Part shown: piece by piece, positions 25,437 through 35,392 of the stretch | How positions within the stretch are numbered: position 1 is the stretch's first letter | Layout: each line of letters begins with the position of its first letter | Assembly (NCBI GenBank): GCA_002869165.1 | Contig: PKTK01000011.1 | Coordinates: 1 to 49,593, forward strand | DNA length: 49,593 bases | Direction of reading: 5' to 3' | DNA from: Candidatus Parcubacteria bacterium | GTDB lineage: Bacteria; Patescibacteriota; Patescibacteriia; Patescibacteriales; UBA12075 | Position numbers and translations under genes: made by a program | The notes under the pieces: model-generated | Told to the model about the DNA's origin: nothing | Database searches by the model: none | The model's input: only the letters and a program-made list of their open reading frames with translations

Positions 25437-26300
25437 TCATAACAAATCCTCTATTTCCTGCAAACTCTTACTTGCCACCTTAGTATAAACTTGAGTAGTT
25501 TCAAGTCTAGCGTGCCCAAGCAGAGATTGAATATATCTAAGATTTACGTTGTTCTCAAGCAAATGAGTAGCAAAAGTATGACGAAGAGTATGAGCTGAAA
25601 CATTTTTATTAATTCCCGCTCTACTAGAAGCTTCAGTAACTACTTTTTGAATAGATCTCACGCTCATCCTCTTACCAGCTGATAATGACTCAAATAAATA
25701 TTTCAAAGGTTTATATTCCAGTAAATATTTATGAACATTCTCTAAAACAATCTCTGAAATTATAGTATTTCTATCCTTCTTCCCCTTCCCTTGTTTAACT
25801 AATATCATTTTCCGATCAAAATCTACATGATCAATCCTTAAGTCTTTCAACTCAGAAACACGAAGCCCAGAACAATATAATATCTGAATCATAAGCTTAT
25901 GTTTAATATTTTCACAAACCTTTATCATTCTAACAATTTCTTGTTTATACAAAACAATTTGAAGTTTTTTGTCACTTTTTGGTCTTTTAATATCGGATGC
26001 ACCATTAAGTATTCTCCTTTTTAAAATTCCTTGATAATAATATTTTAAAGAATTAATAACCAAATTTATTGTCGCACTTGATTTTCCGCTGTCTACTAAA
26101 TATTCTAAATAGTCTTTTATATCAGAAGATGTTATTTCCTTTGGTGACTTATAATTTGCAAATCTTAGCATATCTTTGTTATAATAAAGATAAGATTTTA
26201 TTGTTTTGCTAGAGAATCTAGATATTTTCATGTTCTGCTCCAAATTCCGCATCGGATCACGATCATCAGTTGTAGTTCTAGAAAGATTAGATGTATTCAT
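25437..26300 (-). CDS. Tyrosine recombinase/integrase, integron-integrase-like but without the IntI-specific insertion
   Basis: N-terminal SAM-like domain; catalytic GLRVSE, KGKKDR, HTLRHTFATH, LLGH, TTQVY; KDR to YLFES spacing too short for the I2 insertion; diverges from the cassette array. Confidence 0.92.
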   Translation of the reverse strand: MNTSNLSRTTTDDRDPMRNLEQNMKISRFSSKTIKSYLYYNKDMLRFANYKSPKEITSSDIKDYLEYLVDSGKSSATINLVINSLKYYYQGILKRRILNGASDIKRPKSDKKLQIVLYKQEIVRMIKVCENIKHKLMIQILYCSGLRVSELKDLRIDHVDFDRKMILVKQGKGKKDRNTIISEIVLENVHKYLLEYKPLKYLFESLSAGKRMSVRSIQKVVTEASSRAGINKNVSAHTLRHTFATHLLENNVNLRYIQSLLGHARLETTQVYTKVASKSLQEIEDLL

Positions 26301-26355
26301 AACTCCTTGTGATTACATAATTATATAAATATTTTAACTAATTTTTAACAAAACA

Positions 26356-26384
26356 ACAACAAGTTCACATATAACTTGTTGTAC
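26356..26384 (+). other. Putative attI-like site
   Basis: Perfect 10-bp inverted repeat ACAACAAGTT-7nt-AACTTGTTGT containing the GTT (26378) that starts cassette 1; 55 bp upstream of the integrase start. Confidence 0.6.
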
Positions 26385-26526
26385 GAAATAAATTTTTTAT
26401 CTTATAAAGTATTGATGTTTAAGTATTTTGAACACGACGAAAATTTGATTTTTTTTATTAATTTAAAGAGGGGAAATATTGTGTATTCTCTGTTACGCAT
26501 TCGCGCCACTGCGAAAACGAATTATT

Positions 26527-27813
26527 ATGAAAAATAAAAACGAAAAAAATGAACCATTAGTTGAAACCTCTACATCTTCAGCCTTTTCCGTAAACGCCGA
26601 TAATGAAATCATTGATTATAGTCAATCACCCGAATTACAAGAAATGTTTAACTGCGACCAAGGTAAACTCAAAACAGCAGCAACTTCCGCTTTTGAAAAA
26701 ATATTATCCAGAGCCGAATCAAATAGCGATAAACAGCACTTGAAAAACTTAATTGCGGAAAGTGGAAAGTATATGTCTGAAAAATCCAAGTCCAGAGAAA
26801 ATGAATTTATTCACGGAACAGGTACTGATGCGCTTTTCGGCATAATTGAGCAAGGTAAAATTATTAGACGTGGTGCAGAATTTGGTGGTGCAGATGTTGA
26901 AATGGGTCACAAAATTGACAAAACAGAAAGTGGTGAAAGGGAAACTTATATTTCTGTTTCAGAAAATCAACCAATGGGCATGGGTTTGTCATATATTTAC
27001 GCCCGTGGTTTTGCGCGACCGGAAACAATCGACAAACTTAGCATTGACGCTAACCAAATCAATCAATCAAATTCAGCTTTGGAACAATGGGACGCTTTAC
27101 CAAAAGAAGAACAATTGCGACTACAAAAAGATTATGGTTTTTCAAGAGAACTAATAGAAGGGGTAAGCGAGCGACCGCATTATTTCGAACCTCCAATTGA
27201 AGAAAATAAAATTTTTGTATATCAATCTGTCTTAGACAATTTAAAAAATAAAAACATTCCAAAAGCACCAGATGAAATGACCAAAGTTAAAGAAGTACAT
27301 CACTTATATGGCAAGACAACAAACATTGAAATAATTGAAAAAATAATGACCAATATTGCTTCGGAATTCAAAAAATGGCCAAACACTGATATCAACGATT
27401 TGATAGCTACTTATGAAGACAAACTGAAACGAACGCAATCTAGACTACAGCAATATAACAACCTGACACCAGAAGAGCAAAAAAGAAAAACCCATCAACT
27501 ACCTGTCATCTTAACTATAAAAAAAGAAGGCATACAAAATGTTCGTGAAACAAAAAAAGTCCAAGGAAAAGAGTTGCCAATACACCCATCTGAACAAGAA
27601 AGAAGAATTTATGGAGACATTGATATAACCAATATTTCTGAGATTCAGGTGCCAGAAAATATCATTACTGAAGTTAAGGCAAAAATTGAAGAAAAAATTA
27701 AACAAACCAATGACCCAATGATAGTTGAACATTTGAAAAATATAAAATTGTTGCCTTTGGAATTTTATGAAATTGAAAGGGTTGTGCAAAAACAAGTCAA
27801 CGAATTACAATAA
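26527..27813 (+). CDS. Cassette 1: hypothetical protein, possible ADP-ribosyltransferase-like fold
   Basis: Likely ATG at 26527; FIHGT...L.GIIEQGKI, YISVS and EQERRI motifs. Confidence 0.6.
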   Translation: MKNKNEKNEPLVETSTSSAFSVNADNEIIDYSQSPELQEMFNCDQGKLKTAATSAFEKILSRAESNSDKQHLKNLIAESGKYMSEKSKSRENEFIHGTGTDALFGIIEQGKIIRRGAEFGGADVEMGHKIDKTESGERETYISVSENQPMGMGLSYIYARGFARPETIDKLSIDANQINQSNSALEQWDALPKEEQLRLQKDYGFSRELIEGVSERPHYFEPPIEENKIFVYQSVLDNLKNKNIPKAPDEMTKVKEVHHLYGKTTNIEIIEKIMTNIASEFKKWPNTDINDLIATYEDKLKRTQSRLQQYNNLTPEEQKRKTHQLPVILTIKKEGIQNVRETKKVQGKELPIHPSEQERRIYGDIDITNISEIQVPENIITEVKAKIEEKIKQTNDPMIVEHLKNIKLLPLEFYEIERVVQKQVNELQ

Positions 27814-27941
27814 GGTGTTTTAGACAAAGAGCATTCACCCCTTTAATTCCCCTCTGCCCTTTGCCCAAAACGAAAAAATCAATTTTTCTTTTCTAATTGA
27901 AAAGATTTAGTTCAATTAAAACGAGATAAAAAATTTACATC

Positions 27942-28086
27942 GTACAACAACGAATATGAGGTTCAAGAAATTTACGTTATAATGTTAATAAGGAATGTAA
28001 ATTTCTTTCACCCAAATTTTGACCTCTTTTATCTACTAATACACTAAGGAGTCGGTCAAAACTTCTCATATTCGTAAACGTTAGCT
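27942..28086 (+). repeat. attC-like site 1 (branched)
   Basis: GTACAAC-A-ACGAATATGAG...AGAAATTTAC/GTAAATTTCT...CCCAAA TTTTGACC/GGTCAAAA CTT CTCATATTCGT-AAAC-GTTAGCT. Confidence 0.85.
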
Positions 28087-28158
28087 GAAATAAATAAATT
28101 CTTTTCTGCTATCGCAGAAAAATTATTAAGGCAATTTTTATTCTTTATTTTTTTTACT

Positions 28159-28926
28159 ATGAAAAATGAACTTATCATTAAAAATCTTCGTTTAGTCGTT
28201 GCGGATACTTATGAAGAAATGAGCCAATATACCGCTGACCAAATCCACAATGACATTAAAAAGAAAAGTAACCTGCTTATCTGCACTGCCACCGGCTCCA
28301 CTCCAACAGAAGCCTATGATATGCTTGCCAAAAAATATGACGATGAGCCAGAAGTATTCAGTGGCGTCCGTTTTATTAAACTTGATGAGTGGGGCGGAAT
28401 TCCCATGGATGACCCGGCAACCTGTGAGGTTTATTTACAAGAACATTTGATTTCACCGCTCCAGATTGAAGCATCAAGGTTTGTTTCTTGGAATAGTATT
28501 CCCGAAGACCCAAATCAGGAAGTGAAACGGATATCTAATATGTTTGCCGACGAAGGTGATATTGACCTTTGTATACTTGGCATGGGTGTAAACGGTCATC
28601 TCGGTTTTAACGAACCAGCGGAATTCCTACGTCCCAGTGCACACGTAGCCGAACTCACTGAAACGACAAAAAAACACACAATGGCGCAAAAGGCAGAACA
28701 TGGCATTCAGTATGGATTAACCTTAGGAATGAACGACATTATGAGATCGAAAAAAATCTTGCTATTAGTGAACGGTTCCCACAAAGAAAAGCCTTTCAAG
28801 GAATTTCTTGCTGGTAAAATTACAACTAAATTCCCAACCACCATGCTCTGGATGCATCCGAACGTCACTGTGGTATGTGATAAAGAAGTAGTTCCAAATA
28901 TTGATAAAATTAACAGCCAAAAATAA
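28159..28926 (+). CDS. Cassette 2: glucosamine/galactosamine-6-phosphate isomerase (NagB/YieK-like) family protein
   Basis: ATGSTP, LDEW, LGMGVNGHLGFNEP, GLTLGM..IM, LWMHPNVTVVCD motifs. Confidence 0.9.
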   Translation: MKNELIIKNLRLVVADTYEEMSQYTADQIHNDIKKKSNLLICTATGSTPTEAYDMLAKKYDDEPEVFSGVRFIKLDEWGGIPMDDPATCEVYLQEHLISPLQIEASRFVSWNSIPEDPNQEVKRISNMFADEGDIDLCILGMGVNGHLGFNEPAEFLRPSAHVAELTETTKKHTMAQKAEHGIQYGLTLGMNDIMRSKKILLLVNGSHKEKPFKEFLAGKITTKFPTTMLWMHPNVTVVCDKEVVPNIDKINSQK

Positions 28927-28980
28927 AGAATAAAAATTGCCTTAATAATGCTCGCTATCGCTCGCGAATTTATTTACATC

Positions 28981-29071
28981 AGCTAACAGCGTGTATACGG
29001 TTCGCGCTTGCCTCCGGCAAATGCTCACCCAAATTTGCTTTGCAAACTTCGTATACACGCAAACGTTATGT
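28981..29071 (+). repeat. attC-like site 2 (shortest complete site)
   Basis: AGCTAAC-A-GCGTGTATACG-GTTC..TTGCC/GGCAA..CCCAAA TTTGC/GCAAA CTT CGTATACACGC-AAAC-GTTATGT. Confidence 0.87.
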
Positions 29072-29095
29072 GAAATTTTTAACCTTTTTAAATCT

Positions 29096-29875
29096 ATGAT
29101 CTATTGGAAACTATATTTTTGGTTCATATCACTTATTTCAGTGGTATCAATTTTTTCAAGCATTTCTAAGTTAGTGGGGAATCCCAAGCTTGGACTAATA
29201 GTAGCGTTTTTATTTTTCATGTTTTTTAACATACTTATAGTTTTAAATCTATACTCATTTGTTTACAAGAAAAAGATTGGTAATGACATTTTCCGTAAAA
29301 TAAGTTTCTACATTGTTTCTTTTGTTGTAATGACCATATCAATAGGTGCGCTTGGCAAAATTGGAGAAAAATTATTTTACGCTATTATATTTACTATATT
29401 ACCTTTAGTCCCAGCTGTATATGGTCTATATAAACACGCATTTAAAGACGCTGCTCTAAAAACAAAAGAAAAATCTAGTTCAAAGAAATCTACTATTTGG
29501 AAAATATATTTCTATTTTTTATTGGCGTCTTTAATCTTATCTTTACTGTCCCTGGTTAAAAACTTAGAAAAAGAGTTAGTTAGCTGGAACACAATCAATC
29601 TATTTATATCTAGTTTTTCTCTTTATGGTTTGTACTTATATGTCTTCGATAAACAGAAGTTTAGTAAACAACTTTGGAAAGTTTTTCTAGCAATGTTAAT
29701 AATCTGGGACGTCACCTATTATTTTGCCCTGTCTCCTAGTACTAATTCCGAAATGCTTGAAAAAATTCCCAAAGCCCCGTACTATGCGATGTTCATGATT
29801 ACTATACCTTTATATTATGCCCTATATTTATACAGCTTTAAGTCTGAACGAAAAAAGGTTAAAAACATCACATAA
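29096..29875 (+). CDS. Cassette 3: multi-pass membrane protein with an internal duplication
   Basis: Likely ATG at 29096; two similar halves (WK.YF.F...LY.FV..K); stop TAA lies within the CATAAC site, as is common in integron cassettes. Confidence 0.8.
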   Translation: MIYWKLYFWFISLISVVSIFSSISKLVGNPKLGLIVAFLFFMFFNILIVLNLYSFVYKKKIGNDIFRKISFYIVSFVVMTISIGALGKIGEKLFYAIIFTILPLVPAVYGLYKHAFKDAALKTKEKSSSKKSTIWKIYFYFLLASLILSLLSLVKNLEKELVSWNTINLFISSFSLYGLYLYVFDKQKFSKQLWKVFLAMLIIWDVTYYFALSPSTNSEMLEKIPKAPYYAMFMITIPLYYALYLYSFKSERKKVKNIT

Positions 29876-30040
29876 CAAGCTATATCTGGCTATAGAAAAT
29901 TATCTCAATCTAAACTTCCTCAACGCTACCGCTTTTGAGAAATAATAAGGAGTATAACTTTCTTCCGGCCCAAATTTGAGATATAATAATAAATACTTAA
30001 TAAGGTATATCTCAAACTTCAGATATAGCTATAGTTAAAT
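29870..30040 (+). repeat. attC-like site 3
   Basis: AGCTATATCTG/CAGATATAGCT outer stem, CCCAAA, TTTGAGATATA/TATATCTCAAA hairpin, GTT at 30034. Confidence 0.85.
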
Positions 30041-30113
30041 GAAATAATAAAAATCCTCCTTAATTAAAAACAAAAATATTTTTGGCAATTTATTTAAGGA
30101 TATCTAAAAAAAT

Positions 30114-30443
30114 ATGGAAAATTTAAACAAAGAAGTTTTTAAACCAAATACCCCAGAAGATATAAAAAACGACATAAACATGAAACTTCAGCATTGGGAT
30201 GGTTTATACGAAACTGTTTCTGGTTGGGTTAATTTCAAAGAAAATCTTCCCTTAACTATGGAAGATATCGCAAAGATCATGACTGAAAGTGAGATAGCAC
30301 ACAATAATGTTATCAAATATTTCAGTGAAGGTGGTGAAGGGTTTGAAAAGCAACCTGAATTTTCTAAAGACAAAGTGCTACAATTTTCAGAGCTTGTTAT
30401 TTTGGAACTAAGAGACAAAGTAAAAACCTTAGAAAACAAATAA
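30114..30443 (+). CDS. Cassette 4: hypothetical protein (109 aa)
   Basis: ORF fills the cassette; AAGGA upstream; flanks are inverted repeats. Confidence 0.75.
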   Translation: MENLNKEVFKPNTPEDIKNDINMKLQHWDGLYETVSGWVNFKENLPLTMEDIAKIMTESEIAHNNVIKYFSEGGEGFEKQPEFSKDKVLQFSELVILELRDKVKTLENK

Positions 30444-30494
30444 ATTACCAAAAATATTTTTTTAAAAAAAAGGAGTGAGGATTTTTATTACTTC

Positions 30495-30637
30495 ACTTAA
30501 CACCGCGATAAGCGGCTACAGAAAAATTCCTTCAATAGATTAAATAGGAGGAAATTTTTCTTCCGACCCAAATTTTGATTCCTTAATAATTATAATAAGG
30601 AAGAATCAAAACTTCGCTTCATCGGGAAACGTTATGT
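30495..30637 (+). repeat. attC-like site 4
   Basis: CGATAAGCG/CGCTTCATCG stem, CCCAAA, TTTTGATTC/GAATCAAAA, AAAC-GTT at 30631. Confidence 0.85.
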
Positions 30638-30659
30638 GAAATATTATTAAAACTTTTTT

Positions 30660-31013
30660 ATGAAACTATTAATAGCACTCTCAAAAACATTATTAATTCT
30701 AATATTTTTCTTCTCATTTTTAACTTTAATACACTTAATCAGTAGTTTAAAAGTTATTCCTTGTGAAATAAGTGACTGTAAAGGAGACAAATTAAATGAA
30801 TTAATGGGTGGCGATATTTCAGAAAGAAATCACTGTGCAATTTTTAACCCCATTGCAGATGGAATAGATTGCACAATTAATCCACCAATACTTAAAAGAG
30901 ACAATGGTTATTATTTAATAGGGTATGCTATGTTTTTATTTGTCTTGCATTTTTATATAACAAGAAAAATATTGCCACGATTATACGAAAAAATAACGAA
31001 AAAAAAGTTTTAA
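30660..31013 (+). CDS. Cassette 5: two-TM protein with a Cys-containing loop
   Basis: Hydrophobic N- and C-terminal segments, four Cys in the loop. Confidence 0.75.
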   Translation: MKLLIALSKTLLILIFFFSFLTLIHLISSLKVIPCEISDCKGDKLNELMGGDISERNHCAIFNPIADGIDCTINPPILKRDNGYYLIGYAMFLFVLHFYITRKILPRLYEKITKKKF

Positions 31014-31022
31014 TAATACTAC

Positions 31023-31237
31023 ACATAACACCGCGATAAGCGGCTACAGAAAAATATCTAATCAAAGCTCTCTCTTTGCTACCGCTTAAGAGAGATAATA
31101 ATCAGGAGTATAATTTTCTTTCGACCCAAATTGCGCTGACGATAATCATTGTTTAGTGCTATAATGACTGTAAGTAAATAATCAATATCTAATTTATATA
31201 TCCACGCGCAACTTCGCTTCATCGGTGAGAGTTAGAC
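31023..31237 (+). repeat. attC-like site 5
   Basis: Same ACCGCGATAAGCGGCTACAGAAAAAT start as site 4; CCCAAA TTGCGC...GCGCAA CTT CGCTTCATCGG; GTT at 31231. Confidence 0.82.
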
Positions 31238-31310
31238 GTAATTGTCCTTTTTATAATTATTTTTTAAAAAAAAGAAGCCGTCTGTTTCATTTCAAACGGC
31301 TCTGACATAG

Positions 31311-31637
31311 CTAATTTTTACTATGTTCAAATTTTTTGACAAATTTATGGATTGTTCTCAGCACTAACCAGATAAAAATGATTACCGCAACTACAACAAC
31401 AAATCCAACAAATCCATTTTTTAGAAAAGAACCGAACAATCCCGATTTATACAAGTCCCAAGCACCTATACACGGTAGACATATCATACCTAAAGATATG
31501 ACTGTCATAATTCCCCCGCCTATTGGTCCCCAGTTATTATCCAAGAATGCTCCCTTATAAAAAAGTCCATACAGCATTGCCCATCCACAGATAAAAAAGG
31601 CTACACCAAAGAATATTGCTACTATCTCTCCAGACAT
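31311..31637 (-). CDS. Cassette 6: three-TM membrane protein in reverse orientation
   Basis: GGAGGG RBS, TTGACT -35 at 31720-31725, hairpin downstream; cassette ends GTTAGACG/CGTCTAAC. Confidence 0.75.
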   Translation of the reverse strand: MSGEIVAIFFGVAFFICGWAMLYGLFYKGAFLDNNWGPIGGGIMTVISLGMICLPCIGAWDLYKSGLFGSFLKNGFVGFVVVVAVIIFIWLVLRTIHKFVKKFEHSKN

Positions 31638-31803
31638 GTTATACCCTCCATTTAAGAAAATAAATTTGTCAAAAAATTAGTTTCTACTGTTGGCCTAGTA
31701 TTACATATTATTTAACATCAGTCAACACTAACAAAAACATATTTTAACACGAAAAAATAATTATAAAAATGACAACTCTGCGCTATCGCTTGCCCTTCGG
31801 GAC

Positions 31804-31942
31804 GTCTAACACTCGATATCTGGTTACATATTTTTTCCAATTAATTAATAAGGAACAAAAAAATACTCCACCCAAATTTGTGATATAATTATTAAACTTA
31901 ATAAGGAATATCCCAAACTTCAGATATCGAGAAACGTTCAGC
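31804..31942 (+). repeat. attC-like site 6
   Basis: CTCGATATCTG/CAGATATCGAG stem, CCCAAA, AATAAGGA loops, AAAC-GTT at 31936. Confidence 0.85.
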
Positions 31943-32143
31943 GAAATCGTGCGCCCTCGCTATCGCTCAGTGCTCCGCTTCCGCTAAACGGCTGCGGTCC
32001 CCGAGTTCGGCATTATCGTTTCACTTGCCCTTCGGTCAAGCGCCTCGACAACGCCGAACTCGGCATATACGAAATGTCCAGCCTCAGTCTTCGCTCCGCT
32101 CAGCCTGCGTCTGGCCACTTCGCATATACCGCAGCCGTTGTAT
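31936..32143 (+). repeat. ORF-less cassette 7 plus a GC-rich second-type site; first 140 bp duplicated at 33286-33425
   Basis: GTTCAGCG..CGCTAAAC; AAC-GGCTGCGGT...ACCGCAGCC-GTT perfect stem; CCGAGTTCGGC/GCCGAACTCGG hairpin; copies differ at 4 of 140 positions. Confidence 0.85.
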
Positions 32144-32244
32144 GAAATAGTGACTCAATCAATCTATTTTAAGTACTTGCATATATAGGATTTTTGTGCT
32201 AATTTAACTTGAATTTCATTGATTTCGTCACTACAACACACAAC
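32137..32244 (+). promoter_or_regulatory. Cassette 8: ORF-less cassette with a putative sigma70 promoter
   Basis: TAGTGAC/GTCACTA terminal repeats; TTGCAT(32177)-17-TAATTT(32200) with extended TG. Confidence 0.5.
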
Positions 32245-32797
32245 ATGTGATATGAGACTACGAGTGATGATAAATTTGTTTTTGTTCTTAATATAAAAAT
32301 TAAAAAATCAGAGTTGTGTTAACCATTAATAACAAGGAGAATTATTATGAGTGTATTAGAGCTGAGTCTGGATTTCATGATAGCCGCTAACATCTTAGAT
32401 GAATTTGAGCTAATCATTGACAAAAATGTTGGTAAAAAATATGGAGAAATCTTAGTTTTCGAATATGAGGCTGGTAGATATGCACCTGAAAAATTTTGTC
32501 GCTATGCATTGATGGAGCAAAAAGCGGAAGGGAAAATCCCTCCTGATGTTAATGCATATCACATTGTCGAACTAACATGGATTAATGCAAAAACAAACAT
32601 GATAGCATTCCAACCACTAATTCTTTAAATGCTCACGGTGTAAACTAGTAACAAAGTTTACACCCAATTCTGATTTTTTAATTAACATCAAGGAAAAAAC
32701 AAAAAATAAATTCATCATCCCTCTCCGTCCAAATTTTACAGATAATAATAAAATTAATAAGTTATCTGTAAAACTTCTCATATCACTCTAGTTGTAC
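32238..32797 (+). repeat. attC-like site 8, expanded to ~560 bp with a gene inside hairpin A
   Basis: GTGATATGAG/CTCATATCAC outer stem; arms AATTAAAAAATCAGA/TCTGATTTTTTAATT flank ORF 32347..32628; TCCAAA TTTTACAGATAA/TTATCTGTAAAA CTT. Confidence 0.8.
32347..32628 (+). CDS. Hypothetical protein (93 aa) nested in attC-like site 8
   Basis: AAGGAG RBS; followed by hairpin GGTGTAAACT/AGTTTACACC. Confidence 0.75.
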   Translation: MSVLELSLDFMIAANILDEFELIIDKNVGKKYGEILVFEYEAGRYAPEKFCRYALMEQKAEGKIPPDVNAYHIVELTWINAKTNMIAFQPLIL

Positions 32798-32894
32798 GAA
32801 ATAGCCCTTCTCATTTCTACGAAAGCAATGTTCGTGGCAAAAAAAAGAAGCCCTTGCAAATCTAATAGAAATGCGAAGGGCTACATCGTACAAC
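32791..32894 (+). other. Cassette 9: ORF-less 104-bp cassette
   Basis: GTTGTACGAAATAGCCCTTCTCATTTCTA ... TAGAAATGCGAAGGGCTACATCGTACAAC. Confidence 0.75.
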
Positions 32895-32947
32895 ATGTGA
32901 TATCTGGTTCCAGAAGTGAAAAGTTTTATTTTATTCTTTTAAAGAAA

Positions 32948-32978
32948 AAAGTCATTACTATATTTCAGTAATGACTTT
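32948..32978 (-). terminator. Intrinsic terminator of the tRNA-like RNA
   Basis: 12-bp stem AAAGTCATTACT/AGTAATGACTTT followed by a T-run on the minus strand. Confidence 0.75.
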
Positions 32979-32987
32979 AACACGGGA

Positions 32988-33122
32988 CGCGCTGCATTGG
33001 ACTCGAACCAAAGGTTAAATATCCTAACACGTTATGCTTATGCAATATGTGTGCACCCACTTACACAGTTCACAACACGTATCATTGGTATTCGACCTGC
33101 TCCCTCACTAAGCTAACAGCAC
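32988..33122 (-). ncRNA. tRNA-like RNA (135 nt) with a long hairpin replacing the anticodon arm
   Basis: Acceptor GTGCTGT/GCAGCGC, TA-GCTT-AGTGAGG-GAGC D-arm, TTGG-TTCGAGT-CCAA T-arm; extended GGTCGAATA/TATTTAACC stem. Confidence 0.7.
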
Positions 33123-33155
33123 GTTATAATCTGAATGAACATTTTAATTGATAAA

Positions 33156-33183
33156 ATAGTAACATAAATTTCACACTTGTCAA
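33156..33183 (-). promoter_or_regulatory. Sigma70 promoter for the tRNA-like RNA
   Basis: TTGACA-16-TACTAT with extended TG. Confidence 0.65.
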
Positions 33184-33285
33184 TAACACCATGAAATAAA
33201 ATAAAACTTTTCACTTCTTACTCCCAAATTTTTGAAAAATAATTAATCTTAATAAGGAGTTTCAAAAACTTCAGATATCACCCTA

Positions 33286-33425
33286 GTTCAGCGAAATCGT
33301 GCGCCCTCGCTATCGCTCGATGCTCCGCTTCCGCTGAACGGCTGCGGTCCCCGAGTTCGGCATTATCGTGTCACTTGCCCTTCGGTCAAGCGCCTCGACA
33401 ACGCCGAACTCGGCATATACGAAAT
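33286..33425 (+). repeat. Cassette 10: second copy of the ORF-less GC-rich unit, truncated at CATATACGAAAT
   Basis: 136 of 140 bases identical to 31936-32075. Confidence 0.85.
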
Positions 33426-33516
33426 AATAAAAAACATTTTCCATTCGGAAAATAATTATTTTGTTAATTTATAAAAAAAGAGTTCCATGATTTTTCCTTC
33501 ATGAAACCCTATGGTG

Positions 33517-33753
33517 CTAACTTGTATAAAAGGGGCAGTCACCAAACTCCAAGATATCGTCCGATTTTTTATTGGACGCATTACAGACGTCGAGATTGGA
33601 TACTTTTTTAAAATGCCTACATAATGGTTTACTCAGACCAGATTTATAAATCTTCACGATAACGTTTTCTGCTTCTGGCAAAACTTTACCATTATTCTTG
33701 TCCACTCCTTTACAATTCACCTTATGCGTTCCTATGATTTCATCACGTACCAT
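33517..33753 (-). CDS. Cassette 11: small Cys-containing protein in reverse orientation with its own promoter
   Basis: AGGAGG RBS; TTGACA(33873)-17-TAGTAT(33850); four Cys. Confidence 0.75.
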   Translation of the reverse strand: MVRDEIIGTHKVNCKGVDKNNGKVLPEAENVIVKIYKSGLSKPLCRHFKKVSNLDVCNASNKKSDDILEFGDCPFYTS

Positions 33754-33901
33754 TCTTACAACCTCCTTTTTTTATAAATTAACAATATAATTTTGAAATT
33801 GCTATTACCTATTTAAACATTTATACTGAAAAGACCGATGTCATATACTACAATATTTAAATTAATCTGTCAAGGCGCAATTTCTAGTTTTTTACTACAT
33901 A

Positions 33902-34019
33902 ACATAACACCACGATATACGGTTCGGTCTCCTATCGGAAACCTCTCCCAAATTTATGATATAATTAATTATACTTAATAAGGTATATCATAAACTTCGT
34001 ATATCGGGAAACGTTATAC
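33902..34019 (+). repeat. attC-like site 11
   Basis: CGATATACG/CGTATATCG stem, CCCAAA TTTATGATATA/TATATCATAAA CTT, AAAC-GTT at 34013. Confidence 0.85.
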
Positions 34020-34161
34020 GCAATTCAAAAAATATTTTCTTTTAATTAGGTTTTTGATAGGCAATTAATGAGAATTTAAATTTGATTTTTTAATTAATTA
34101 TAAAGGGGGAAAGTTGAGTTCCTTCACTGGTGTTCAGGAGACAATTTAATTTTAAATATTT

Positions 34162-35112
34162 ATGAATTATAAAAAATATTTCTCTGATAATAATCTCATA
34201 GAAAATAAGAATATCCCTAATTCTGTGTGGCTAGATTACGTAAAAAATGGCATTTACCCAGTTAGAGGTTTGGTATTTTTCTATTTTTTTATACTCATTT
34301 TAATGCTGTCTTTTTTTATTATTCCGTCATTGAATATTTATCAAAAAATAAAAATTGAATTTCTTGGAGATGATTTCACTTTATTTGTTTACATTGCTAT
34401 TTCATCATTGTTATTCCTGATACTCTTTTTTAAATATTTTAATAAAAAAGGTGATTACTGGAGAAAGGTTCCTATTAATAATTGGTTTAGATCATGGAGA
34501 ATTTATAATTTTTTAGAATATTTAGAAAAAGAAAATATTTCAAATATTGGGCTATTTGATAAACAAAAAAACATTTTTCAAATAAATTCATTCAAAAATA
34601 CTGGAGTTATTACAATAGACTACATTATTGATTTAGGGCTACTTGCCACAGCAGACAGAAAATCGCCCATTAATTACACATTTCGGACTAATAAAGAAGT
34701 TGAAGCAGGTTATGAATATTCTCATTTTTTTAAACTATCTTTTGAAAGTTATATTTTTAGAAAACTAAAAAATACAATATATTTTTATGGCAATAATCGA
34801 AGTACTTTTAGTAGATATCTATTTTTAGAAACAATTAAAGACAAGGGTAATGTTTTTTTAAAAAATGATGATGAAAACACCGGGGTCAATAAATTGCTTT
34901 ACGATATTAAAAAATTAATACAAGATTACCCAAACTTAAAAGGAGAAATATTGATTGACAACACAAGTGTAGTGGTTAAATTTTATGACAACTATAGACA
35001 CTTCACTATGCTCAACACTGACGGGAAACAGTATTTTGATTTTTTGAAAAATAAAAATAATTTGTTTGAAAGTTTTGAAGGTTGTGAAAAATTATTAAAC
35101 ATTTTGAGCTAG
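34162..35112 (+). CDS. Cassette 12: membrane-anchored hypothetical protein (two TM helices)
   Basis: 316-aa ORF; flanking sequences resemble those of cassette 1. Confidence 0.75.
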   Translation: MNYKKYFSDNNLIENKNIPNSVWLDYVKNGIYPVRGLVFFYFFILILMLSFFIIPSLNIYQKIKIEFLGDDFTLFVYIAISSLLFLILFFKYFNKKGDYWRKVPINNWFRSWRIYNFLEYLEKENISNIGLFDKQKNIFQINSFKNTGVITIDYIIDLGLLATADRKSPINYTFRTNKEVEAGYEYSHFFKLSFESYIFRKLKNTIYFYGNNRSTFSRYLFLETIKDKGNVFLKNDDENTGVNKLLYDIKKLIQDYPNLKGEILIDNTSVVVKFYDNYRHFTMLNTDGKQYFDFLKNKNNLFESFEGCEKLLNILS

Positions 35113-35201
35113 CTATTATTTTTATTAAAACAAAAAATAAAACTTTCTCTACAATTATTTAACATTTAATATATTTAGCAACGCGATAAAAAACTTACAT
35201 C

Positions 35202-35343
35202 GCACAACAAACGATATACGGCTACAGAAAAATTCCTTTATTAATTAACACCAAGGAGTAAACTTTTCTTCCGACCCAAATTATAAAAATGAACATTAAT
35301 TTAATAAGGTATTTTTAGAACTTCGTATATCTACTTATTGTAT
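35202..35343 (+). repeat. attC-like site 12, degenerate end of the array
   Basis: GATATACG/CGTATATC stem and CCCAAA present, but terminal GTT is replaced by ATT (35337). Confidence 0.75.
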
Positions 35344-35392
35344 TAAATAATTAAATACCTTTTTTTAAAAATCACATTTTAAACAAATATTT

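What the first reader, a model, noticed from the sequence alone, without database searches (positions are those of the whole stretch)
32888..33292. tRNA-like RNA gene with its own promoter and terminator nested inside a recombination site
Between perfect 24-bp arms (32912-32935/33195-33218) the minus strand reads: TTGACA-16-TACTAT promoter, a 135-nt RNA, then a terminator. The RNA has a 7-bp acceptor stem, a D-arm (TAGCTTAGTGAGGGAGCA) and a T-arm (GGTTCGAGTCC). A hairpin of about 85 nt replaces the anticodon and variable arms, and no CCA is encoded. The insert also holds a 15-codon frame (MIRVVNCVSGCTHIA*), loosely like a miniature tmRNA layout, but the G3-U70 alanine identity pair is absent. 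Inference: a mobile tRNA mimic (decoy, intron-containing tRNA or processing scaffold).
Basis: partly seen in the sequence, partly recalled or inferred. Interest (0 to 1): 0.88.

Follow-up and report, generated by a model that had tools for sequence, protein, structure and literature searches.

The report
Orphan tRNA-like gene inside integron site
A small gene with its own promoter and terminator, encoding an RNA that copies the upper half of a tRNA but carries a long hairpin where the anticodon should be, sits inside the loop of a recombination site in an integron-like gene-cassette array of a tiny-genome bacterium; no relative and no expression data were found, so its function is still a guess.

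Summary
The 24-bp perfect arms, the TTGACA-16-TACTAT promoter with an extended -10, the 13-bp terminator and a 135-nt cloverleaf-like RNA (7-bp acceptor, D arm, T arm, 87-nt hairpin) are all at the stated coordinates. An independent contig spans the unit without differences.

The setting is an integron-like array. A Xer-type tyrosine recombinase (25437-26300) lies beside an attI-like core. Ten successive cassettes follow, each starting with the reverse complement of its own attC core. The RNA unit sits at the tip of one hairpin of attC-like site 32887-33297.

The RNA is tRNA-like only in its upper half. The Rfam tRNA model does not reach E 10, default ARAGORN finds nothing, and no tmRNA features are present. 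ARAGORN's intron-mode call, Leu-UAG with a 60-nt intron, is uninformative: 125 of 300 hairpin shuffles also give a call.

No homologue was found in the genome itself, 40 relatives, 150 order and 150 phylum genomes, 86 integrase-linked loci, or the phage, plasmid, viral and metagenome scans. No RNA run was available.

Best reading: a cassette-borne, non-decoding tRNA mimic. This is unproven. Interest is moderate.

The parts
25437..26300 (-). Xer-type tyrosine recombinase (287 aa), divergent from the cassette array; the putative integrase of the array
   Evidence: PF00589 141.5 bits. NF040815 'site-specific tyrosine recombinase/integron integrase' 231.4 bits against a cut-off of 220; TIGR02249 integron integrase 196 bits, below its cut-off of 265. 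Relatives at 45-66% identity lie in Patescibacteria MAGs.
26378..26389 (+). attI-like core GTTGTACGAAAT, the start of cassette 1
   Evidence: Its first 8 nt are the exact reverse complement of the R'' box at 27941. Nearly the same surrounding sequence occurs at a second locus, C6 about 48.57 kb.
32791..32894 (+). ORF-less 104-nt cassette body in front of site F. Its ends pair with each other (GTTGTACG...CGTACAAC). On the minus strand it carries a G+C-rich hairpin followed by a T run.
   Evidence: Inverted repeat I6, 29 nt, 90% complementary. R' at 32791 pairs with R'' at 32887 with 0 mismatches. Sequence read. In run X2 a 92%-alike copy is joined to a different site.
32887..33297 (+). attC-like recombination site F: R''-L'' at 32887-32911, hairpin 2 with cargo at 32912-33218, the CCCAAATT motif, hairpin 1, then L'-R' up to 33297
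   Evidence: nhmmer with a profile of six sites of the window hits 33215-33299 (E 9.4e-8) and weakly 32883-32915. The ssDNA fold pairs GTGATATCTG with CAGATATCAC around the two inner hairpins, z -6.4. Other sites fold the same way.
32912..32935 (.). left arm of the perfect 24-bp inverted repeat (stem of hairpin 2 of site F)
   Evidence: pair I7, 100% complementary
33195..33218 (.). right arm of the perfect 24-bp inverted repeat
   Evidence: pair I7
33156..33183 (-). sigma-70-type promoter: TTGACA, 16 nt, TACTAT, with TG before the -10
   Evidence: 10 of 12 matches, TG present. A start site near 33149 is inferred, not shown.
32988..33122 (-). 135-nt tRNA-like RNA. Acceptor 33122-33116 pairs with 32995-32989; discriminator G at 32988; D arm 33113-33099; T arm 33011-32997.
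   Evidence: Model R1 built from it scores ordinary tRNAs at 25-32 bits through these three arms.
33012..33098 (-). 87-nt irregular hairpin in place of the anticodon arm and variable region. It contains the 15-codon frame at 33085-33038.
   Evidence: -25.1 kcal/mol, z -3.3; for the frame
32948..32978 (-). intrinsic terminator: 13-bp stem, 5-nt loop, T run
32231..32802 (+). neighbouring attC-like site E, which carries a 93-aa ORF (32347-32628) at the same hairpin-2 position. This is a second example of cargo inside a site.
   Evidence: (I19). A homologous site frame with a different ORF lies at C6 48.0-48.5 kb.

Best explanation
A complete small transcription unit lies at the tip of one hairpin of an attC-like site, in an integron-like cassette array of a small-genome bacterium that is probably a member of Patescibacteria. 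The unit reads: strong sigma-70 promoter, leader of about 26 nt, 135-nt RNA, intrinsic terminator. The RNA keeps the upper half of a tRNA. That means the acceptor/T minihelix, U8, A14, G18-G19, the G53-C61 pair and the T loop UUCGAGU. These are the parts read by RNase P, 3'-end trimming enzymes and the CCA-adding enzyme. The anticodon arm and variable region are replaced by an 87-nt irregular hairpin.

Inferred mechanism: the RNA is transcribed on its own. RNase P cuts it at G33122 (the genome has RNase P RNA). It is then trimmed and CCA-tailed like the host tRNAs, most of which also lack an encoded CCA. It accumulates as a stable RNA that cannot decode and is probably not charged, because no known anticodon-independent identity set is present. 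It would then act as a tRNA mimic: either a decoy or binding partner for a tRNA-directed protein, or a tRNA scaffold that stabilises and presents the hairpin. Because it lies inside the attC-like site, it would move with the cassette.

Shown: the anatomy, the position within the site, and the three-arm likeness to tRNA. Inferred: transcription, processing and function.
For: Anatomy: the promoter and terminator are in the right order and spacing around the cloverleaf. The cloverleaf persists in the fold of the 209-nt predicted transcript.

tRNA likeness of the arms: across the whole 1.43-Mb genome, ARAGORN in intron mode makes only 2 intron-type calls. One is this RNA and the other is a tRNA-Thr with an insert of about 200 nt. 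It makes none in 3 shuffled genomes. Model R1, built from this RNA, aligns ordinary tRNAs through acceptor, D and T arms at 25-32 bits while skipping the hairpin.

Not a decoding tRNA: default ARAGORN finds nothing. The Rfam tRNA model does not reach E 10 even on 221 nt. The same model scores 38-56 bits on 115-139-nt phage tRNAs that carry an insert in the anticodon arm, 66 nt in the two aligned. The genome already has tRNA-Leu(UAG) and a tmRNA.

Processing machinery: RNase P RNA is present at 157 bits.

Position in the site: the 24-bp arms stand where the other sites have their variable hairpin. Site E and a C6 locus hold protein genes at the same position.

Integron-like context: a recombinase lies beside the array. 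Ten successive R'/R'' reverse-complement pairs were found, 7 exact and 3 with one mismatch. The same site family lies upstream of related integrases in 8 of 86 loci.

Physical reality: a Logan contig spans the unit with 0 differences.
Against: No homologue was found anywhere, so there is no covariation support for any helix. The searches were: own genome, 1 hit which is the RNA itself; blastn of 40 relatives, giving only AT-rich promoter-like chance hits in 4; model R1 on 24 family genomes, 150 order genomes and 150 phylum genomes, with 0 hits; 0 full-length matches in 6 + 80 integrase-linked loci and in 80 viral loci; 0 in phages and plasmids; 0 for the D-arm/T-arm pattern in metagenome contigs and 0 for the D-arm pattern in viral contigs.

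The whole-RNA folding z-score is only -2.35. The cloverleaf is imperfect: the T stem has a U-U mismatch, the D loop lacks positions 20-21, and there is no variable loop. The Rfam tRNA score is very low, so even the three arms are weak by that model. Promoter-like hexamers are common in this AT-rich DNA, with 12 found against 7.4 expected in 1.7 kb. No function can be derived from the neighbouring cassettes, whose proteins match no family.
Confidence: 0.45

Rival explanations
1. It is an interrupted tRNA gene: a cassette-borne tRNA with an insert of about 60 nt just 5' of the anticodon. This would resemble the 'enigmatic' short introns of phage tRNAs. It would either be matured by an unknown splicing route or be inactivated by the insert.
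For: ARAGORN in intron mode calls tRNA-Leu(UAG) with a 60-nt intron. The resulting loop CUUAGGA is the same as that of the host tRNA-Leu(UAG). Many phage contigs carry 115-140-nt tRNAs, and by ARAGORN's intron-mode calls their inserts mostly lie 5' of the anticodon. Lak megaphage tRNAs with unexplained introns are in print (PMC6784885, passages read). The same genome has a tRNA-Thr(GGU) with an insert of about 200 nt.
Against: With the three arms kept and the 87 nt shuffled, ARAGORN still calls an intron-bearing tRNA in 125 of 300 cases. The anticodon and intron assignment therefore carries no weight. The Rfam tRNA model scores the phage cases at 38-56 bits but does not reach E 10 here. A Leu tRNA without a long variable arm would be abnormal in bacteria (textbook knowledge, not tested). 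The insert is too short for a group I intron. No EndA and no RtcB were found in the genome. The fold has one continuous hairpin and no bulge-helix-bulge motif.
Confidence: 0.2
2. It is a decaying relic: a former tRNA gene, or a fragment of one, that was captured in the cassette. Its anticodon region has been scrambled and it has no present function.
For: It is single-copy with no homologues in any search. The cloverleaf is imperfect, with a U-U in the T stem, a short D loop and no variable loop. The Rfam tRNA score is below E 10.
Against: The promoter (perfect -35, TG-extended -10) and the 13-bp terminator are intact. The acceptor is perfect at 7-9 bp. The flanking 24-bp arms are perfect. The replaced region is not scrambled but forms a stable 87-nt hairpin with z -3.3. 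A decaying gene would not be expected to keep all of these.
Confidence: 0.15
3. The element works at the DNA level. The cloverleaf and hairpins matter as single-stranded DNA that compacts an otherwise 259-nt loop, so that the attC-like site can still fold and recombine. On this reading the RNA-gene look is secondary or accidental.
For: The whole site folds as ssDNA with z -6.4, with the cargo as self-contained substructures inside the 24-bp stem. Cargo in site E is likewise bracketed by long inverted repeats.
Against: DNA compaction does not need a T loop UUCGAGU, a G18-G19 D loop, a consensus promoter or a T-run terminator in the correct order on one strand. Site E shows that an ordinary protein gene is tolerated at the same position.
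Confidence: 0.1
4. It is a miniature tmRNA-like or otherwise chargeable RNA that uses the 15-codon frame.
For: The frame MIRVVNCVSGCTHIA* lies in the hairpin. A tRNA-like acceptor/T domain is present.
Against: There is no G3:U70; the pairs are U2-G71 and G3-C70. ARAGORN's tmRNA mode finds nothing. No tmRNA family reaches E 10 in Rfam. There is no Shine-Dalgarno sequence or resume-codon context, and the frame is base-paired within the hairpin. A normal tmRNA is present at C1:40124-40512.
Confidence: 0.02

Closest known systems
Canonical bacterial tRNA (Rfam RF00005)
   Same: A 7-bp acceptor stem with an unpaired discriminator. U8, A14, G18-G19. A 4-bp D stem. T loop UUCGAGU closed by G53-C61. 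Gene layout of promoter, short leader and terminator. No encoded CCA, like most host tRNAs.
   Different: There is no 5-bp/7-nt anticodon stem-loop and no variable region; an 87-nt hairpin takes their place. The T stem has a U-U mismatch. RF00005 does not reach E 10, and default ARAGORN finds nothing.
Phage tRNAs with short unexplained inserts in the anticodon arm (Lak megaphage 'enigmatic introns', PMC6784885; 115-140-nt tRNAs in IMG/VR contigs seen here)
   Same: Overall length of 115-140 nt. The extra sequence sits inside the anticodon arm, mostly 5' of the anticodon by ARAGORN's intron-mode calls. The gene is carried by a mobile genome.
   Different: The phage genes are otherwise canonical. 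They score 38-56 bits on RF00005, have a normal variable loop and, in the one gene I parsed by eye (L112 9679-9805), a readable anticodon loop. This RNA fails the model, and its 'anticodon' is no better than chance. Model R1 finds no hairpin similarity to them.
tRNA-like domain of tmRNA and other tRNA mimics (YrlA/Y-RNA-like RNAs, viral tRNA-like structures, mascRNA; recalled from the literature, not from a call)
   Same: The principle is the same: the acceptor/T-arm 'top half' of tRNA is kept so that tRNA enzymes are recruited, and the anticodon domain is replaced by another helix.
   Different: tmRNA has G3:U70, no D stem, pseudoknots and a tag frame, and none of these fits here. YrlA is circularly permuted relative to this RNA and works with Ro/Rsr, which is absent from this genome. 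No Rfam family of these kinds matches.
Integron attC sites and gene cassettes
   Same: A tyrosine recombinase lies beside an attI-like core. The array is one-directional. Each cassette begins with GTT... that is the reverse complement of the ...AAC core of its own site. The L boxes are imperfectly paired with extrahelical bases (my reading of the sequence). The distal structure is variable. ORF-less cassettes are present.
   Different: The recombinase is Xer-like at 287 aa. It is below the NCBIfam integron-integrase cut-off, and its match to the IntI profiles is split at the region where IntI is longer. The sites are 93-230 nt, branched, with conserved inner motifs (CCCAAATT, TAATAAGG, AAACTTC). 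Three sites carry a whole gene inside the variable hairpin. I found this in no paper in the searches.

Membership tests
tRNA (RF00005) | Score at or above the family's gathering threshold (29 bits), or detection by a standard tRNA finder | tested here: not met
   No hit at gathering threshold. No hit at E<=10 on 5.8 kb or on 221 nt. Default ARAGORN finds nothing here. Control: the same model scores 38-56 bits on phage tRNAs of 115-139 nt.
tRNA (RF00005) | Acceptor stem of 7 bp, D arm with G18-G19, and T arm with the T-psi-C loop | tested here: met
   Fold. ARAGORN intron mode draws all three arms. R1 aligns these arms to real tRNAs at 25-32 bits. The T stem has one U-U mismatch.
tRNA (RF00005) | Anticodon stem of 5 bp with a 7-nt loop, and a variable region of at least 4 nt | tested here: not met
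   The MFE and centroid structures show one continuous 87-nt hairpin that abuts the D and T arms directly.
Intron-containing tRNA (group I, or archaeal-type bulge-helix-bulge) | Either a group I core (about 200 nt or more, with a Rfam Intron_gpI match), or a bulge-helix-bulge motif together with EndA endonuclease and RtcB ligase in the genome | tested here: not met
   The insert is 60-87 nt with no Rfam match. PF01974 and PF01139 are absent from the 95.75%-complete genome while the controls ring. No bulge-helix-bulge appears in the fold.
Intron-containing tRNA (any kind) | A proper anticodon stem-loop is restored after removal of the insert | tested here: inconclusive
   ARAGORN -i gives Leu(UAG) with loop CUUAGGA. 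However, 125 of 300 shuffles of the 87 nt also give a call.
tmRNA | G3:U70 alanine identity pair, detection by the tmRNA models, and a tag frame with pseudoknots | tested here: not met
   The pairs are U2-G71 and G3-C70. ARAGORN -m finds nothing. No tmRNA family reaches E<=10. The genome has a standard tmRNA elsewhere.
YrlA / Y-RNA-like tRNA mimic | A Ro60/Rsr (TROVE) partner in the genome, with the RNA ends at the far end of the long stem | tested here: not met
   PF05731 is absent. The promoter and terminator place the ends at the acceptor stem. There is no Rfam match.
Integron (context of the finding) | A tyrosine recombinase next to an attI site and a one-directional cassette array | tested here: met
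   Related integrases have the same site family upstream in 8 of 86 loci, although many contigs are too short to show it.
Integron (context of the finding) | An IntI-type integrase: a score above the integron-integrase model cut-off, and the IntI-specific extra segment | tested here: not met
   TIGR02249 scores 196 bits against a cut-off of 265. PRK15417 scores 138.5 against 435. Both matches are split in two after about profile position 180. The protein is 287 aa against profile lengths of 315-337. It passes NF040815 (Xer-type/'integron integrase') at 231 against 220.
Integron (context of the finding) | attC sites: inverse core sites RYYYAAC...GTTRRRY, where the cassette's first bases complement its own R'' | tested here: met
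   Ten successive pairs, 7 exact and 3 with one mismatch. ssDNA folds have z -3.5 to -5.0 for 4 of 5 sites and -0.86 for the fifth. IntegronFinder's own attC model could not be run.
Integron (context of the finding) | Recombination of these sites by the neighbouring enzyme | not testable with these tools
   This needs an in vivo or in vitro recombination assay.

The most novel reading that the evidence does not exclude
Patescibacteria carry an undescribed integron-like system, with a Xer-type integrase and long branched attC sites, in which the tip of one attC hairpin serves as a second cargo slot. In this array that slot carries a mobile, self-expressed tRNA mimic. The mimic would be matured by RNase P and the CCA-adding enzyme, and would serve as a decoy or partner for a tRNA-directed protein in a conflict system, for example a tRNA-cleaving toxin or defence nuclease. 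That would make it the first RNA-only cassette cargo of its kind.
Probability: 0.12. Interest if true: 0.85.

Novelty: new variant of a known kind. Interest (0 to 1): 0.52.

Why it matters
If the RNA is made and processed, it would be a natural 'tRNA scaffold' RNA carried as integron-type cargo. It would show that cassette arrays can move self-expressed structured RNAs as well as promoterless protein genes, and that a gene can ride inside the recombination site itself. It would also give a handle on an integron-like system of the candidate phyla radiation whose integrase lacks the usual IntI hallmark. If the RNA is not made, the locus still documents cargo tolerated inside an attC-like hairpin. 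That bears on how such sites fold.

Tried and rejected
Homologue searches that found nothing:
- own genome;
- blastn of 40 relatives, where 4 short hits were AT-rich promoter-like matches followed by unrelated sequence;
- model R1 on 24 family genomes, 150 order genomes and 150 phylum genomes, the last two run with stricter filters;
- 6 + 80 integrase-linked loci;
- 80 viral loci;
- the phage and plasmid collections by blastn;
- a strict D-arm/T-arm pattern in metagenome contigs and the D-arm pattern in viral contigs.

A looser pattern in viral contigs gave 120 or more stretches, of which 80 loci were held. Of those, 35 matches were two adjacent tRNAs. The other 45 were long phage tRNAs or a tRNA next to another feature, and none resembled this hairpin.

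Expression: no RNA holder was listed. Only one DNA run, X1 from a bioreactor metagenome, holds the stretch. Parts without cover in X2 and X3 say nothing.

tmRNA, Y-RNA and intron readings were rejected as set out under rivals and membership. ARAGORN's Leu(UAG) assignment was rejected after the shuffle control. The neighbouring cassette proteins gave no family match that could hint at a partner.

Literature: three searches found nothing on tRNA-like integron cassettes or on integrons of Patescibacteria/CPR of this type. Two searches on phage tRNA introns gave only the Lak megaphage paper as relevant. I read its passages, not its supplements. Supplementary Table 6 of that paper, on intron positions, may bear on the comparison and could not be seen.

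No protein structure, complex or homology job was run because none bears on the RNA.
Full report
**What is there.** On the minus strand between 33183 and 32948 the window reads as follows. TTGACA, 16 nt, then TACTAT preceded by TG. About 33 nt of AT-rich sequence follow. Then comes a 135-nt stretch (33122-32988), then 9 nt, then a 13-bp hairpin followed by a T run. The 135 nt fold into a four-way junction:
- an acceptor stem of 7 bp, extendable to 9;
- a D arm GCUU/GAGC with loop AGUGAGG;
- an 87-nt irregular hairpin;
- a T arm with loop UUCGAGU.

The MFE is -43.9 kcal/mol with z -2.35. The same structure is predicted inside the 209-nt putative primary transcript, with pair probabilities near 1 for the acceptor, 0.75 for D, 0.54-0.75 for T and 0.8-1.0 for the long arm. 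The hairpin alone has z -3.3. The unit is bracketed by a perfect 24-bp inverted repeat at 32912-32935 and 33195-33218. A Logan contig of run X1 covers 32764-33315 without a difference, at the same depth as its neighbours.

**The setting.** The window is contig C11 of a 1.43-Mb, 34% G+C genome that is 95.75% complete. A 287-aa tyrosine recombinase at 25437-26300 on the minus strand passes the NCBIfam model 'site-specific tyrosine recombinase/integron integrase'. It stays below the integron-integrase cut-offs, and its match to both IntI profiles is split at the region where IntI proteins are longer. Its closest relatives, at 45-66% identity, are in MAGs titled Patescibacteria group bacterium.

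An array runs from an attI-like core GTTGTACGAAAT at 26378 to about 35350. In ten successive cassettes the first 8 nt (GTTNNNNN) are the reverse complement of the ...AAC core in front of the next repeat. Seven of these pairs are exact and three have one mismatch. This is the signature of integron-type cassettes.

The repeats are 93-230 nt long. They share inner motifs (CCCAAATT, TAATAAGG, AAACTTC) and fold as single-stranded DNA into an outer stem with two inner hairpins. The same repeat family lies upstream of related integrases in 8 of 86 loci fetched from genomes and metagenomes; most of the other contigs are too short to tell.

**Nested in the site.** Site F (32887-33297) has the usual outer boxes, GTGATATCTG paired with CAGATATCAC, and the usual hairpin 1. 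The 24-bp arms stand exactly where the other sites have their short, variable hairpin 2. The 259-nt RNA unit is the loop of that hairpin.

The cassette body in front of it (32791-32894) has no ORF. Site E next door (32231-32802) carries a 93-aa ORF at the same position. A homologous site frame at C6 48.0-48.5 kb, next to a second attI-like sequence, carries a different ORF. Cargo inside the site therefore occurs three times in this genome. I did not find it in the one relative array I read through (L011).

**How tRNA-like is it?** The three arms are tRNA-like. Across the whole genome, ARAGORN with introns allowed makes only two intron-type calls. One is this RNA and the other is a tRNA-Thr(GGU) with an insert of about 200 nt. 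It makes none in three shuffled genomes. A covariance model built from this RNA (R1) aligns ordinary tRNAs through acceptor, D and T arms at 25-32 bits.

It is nevertheless not a member of the tRNA family. Default ARAGORN finds nothing. The Rfam tRNA model does not reach E 10 even when only 221 nt are searched. The same model scores 38-56 bits on 115-139-nt phage tRNAs with an insert in the anticodon arm, 66 nt in the two aligned. The RNA lacks a variable region and an anticodon stem-loop.

ARAGORN's assignment, Leu-UAG with a 60-nt intron, is not evidence. When the 87 nt are shuffled and the arms kept, 125 of 300 sequences still get an intron-bearing tRNA call. The genome has its own tRNA-Leu(UAG) and a normal tmRNA. 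It lacks EndA, RtcB and Ro. It has RNase P RNA.

**Relatives.** None were found, in any of these searches: own genome, 40 relatives, 24 family, 150 order and 150 phylum genomes, 86 integrase-linked loci, 80 viral loci, the phage and plasmid collections, or pattern scans of metagenome and viral contigs. No helix therefore has covariation support. Only one DNA run holds the stretch and no RNA run was listed. Expression is untested.

**Reading.** The intact promoter and terminator, the perfect acceptor stem, the canonical T loop, the stable replacement hairpin and the perfect flanking arms argue for a working, or very recently working, RNA gene rather than a relic. The retained parts are those that RNase P, the 3'-end enzymes and the CCA-adding enzyme read. 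This rests on established knowledge of tRNA processing and was not tested here. The missing parts are those needed for decoding and for most synthetases.

My best reading, at 0.45, is a non-decoding tRNA mimic that travels as cassette cargo, acting as a decoy, binding partner or scaffold for its hairpin. The rivals are:
- an interrupted tRNA like the phage 'enigmatic intron' genes (0.2; PMC6784885, passages read);
- a decaying relic (0.15);
- a DNA-level folding aid for the site (0.1);
- a tmRNA-like RNA (0.02).

**Verdict.** 'Nested in a recombination site' is correct. The tmRNA analogy is wrong and the intron reading is weak. The function is open. It counts as a new variant of known kinds (tRNA mimics, integron cargo), resting on a single copy. 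The integron-like system around it, with a Xer-type integrase, long branched sites and cargo inside a site hairpin, is at least as noteworthy as the RNA. I found it in no paper in three searches.

Noticed in passing
G000:C5:31098-31377 (minus strand; L017): tRNA-Thr(GGU), which is missing from the default tRNA set, is called only with an insert of about 200 nt after the anticodon. A U precedes the 5' junction and a G is the last insert base, as in group I introns, but no Rfam family matches at E<=0.1. Two partial copies of the tRNA's 5' half lie just upstream, and several integrase genes are on the same contig.
   Followed up: partly
window 25437-35350; G000:C6:47575-48600: An integron-like system with a 287-aa Xer-type recombinase and 93-230-nt branched attC-like sites sharing the motifs CCCAAATT, TAATAAGG and AAACTTC. 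A second locus on C6 has a near-identical attI-like sequence. The same site family lies upstream of related integrases in Patescibacteria MAGs and metagenome contigs.
   Followed up: partly
window 32231-32802 and G000:C6:48000-48520: Two homologous attC-like site frames hold different small ORFs (93 aa, and about 57 aa by my reading) inside the same hairpin. Each is preceded by an ORF-less body of about 100 nt with a promoter-like TTGCAT/TTGCTT...TAATTT/TAAGTT facing the ORF.
   Followed up: partly
window 31936-32075 and 33286-33425: A 140-nt G+C-rich repeat, 97% identical between copies, follows sites D and F in this AT-rich array. It starts with a mini-cassette (GTTCAGCG...CGCTGAAC) and looks like a different, G+C-rich class of site. 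The first copy is closed by CCGCAGCC-GTTGTATG at 32130-32144. The second is interrupted by the cassette with the 78-aa minus-strand ORF.
   Followed up: no
viral loci L101-L176 (for example L112 9495-9620 and 9679-9805, L110 8908-9026, L133 7156-7284): Many IMG/VR phage contigs carry several 115-140-nt tRNAs each. They are canonical except for an insert of about 30-80 nt in the anticodon arm, mostly 5' of the anticodon. RF00005 scores them at 38-56 bits. A motif like GGTTATC or GAGTTACTT recurs near the 3' end of several inserts.
   Followed up: partly
G000 whole genome: ARAGORN finds 39 tRNAs and no tRNA-Phe. The genome is 95.75% complete, so this may be an assembly gap.
   Followed up: no
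G000:C14:502541-503073: The RNase P RNA match spans 533 nt against a 367-position model, which suggests a large insertion.
   Followed up: no
window 32777-32895 (run X2): In a second sample of the same study, a 92%-alike copy of the ORF-less cassette body is followed by a different site beginning CTCGATATCAGG. That body therefore occurs with another partner in a related population.
   Followed up: no
L133 6462-7036: A ROOL RNA at 290 bits sits within a large phage tRNA array, directly before one of the long insert-bearing tRNAs.
   Followed up: no
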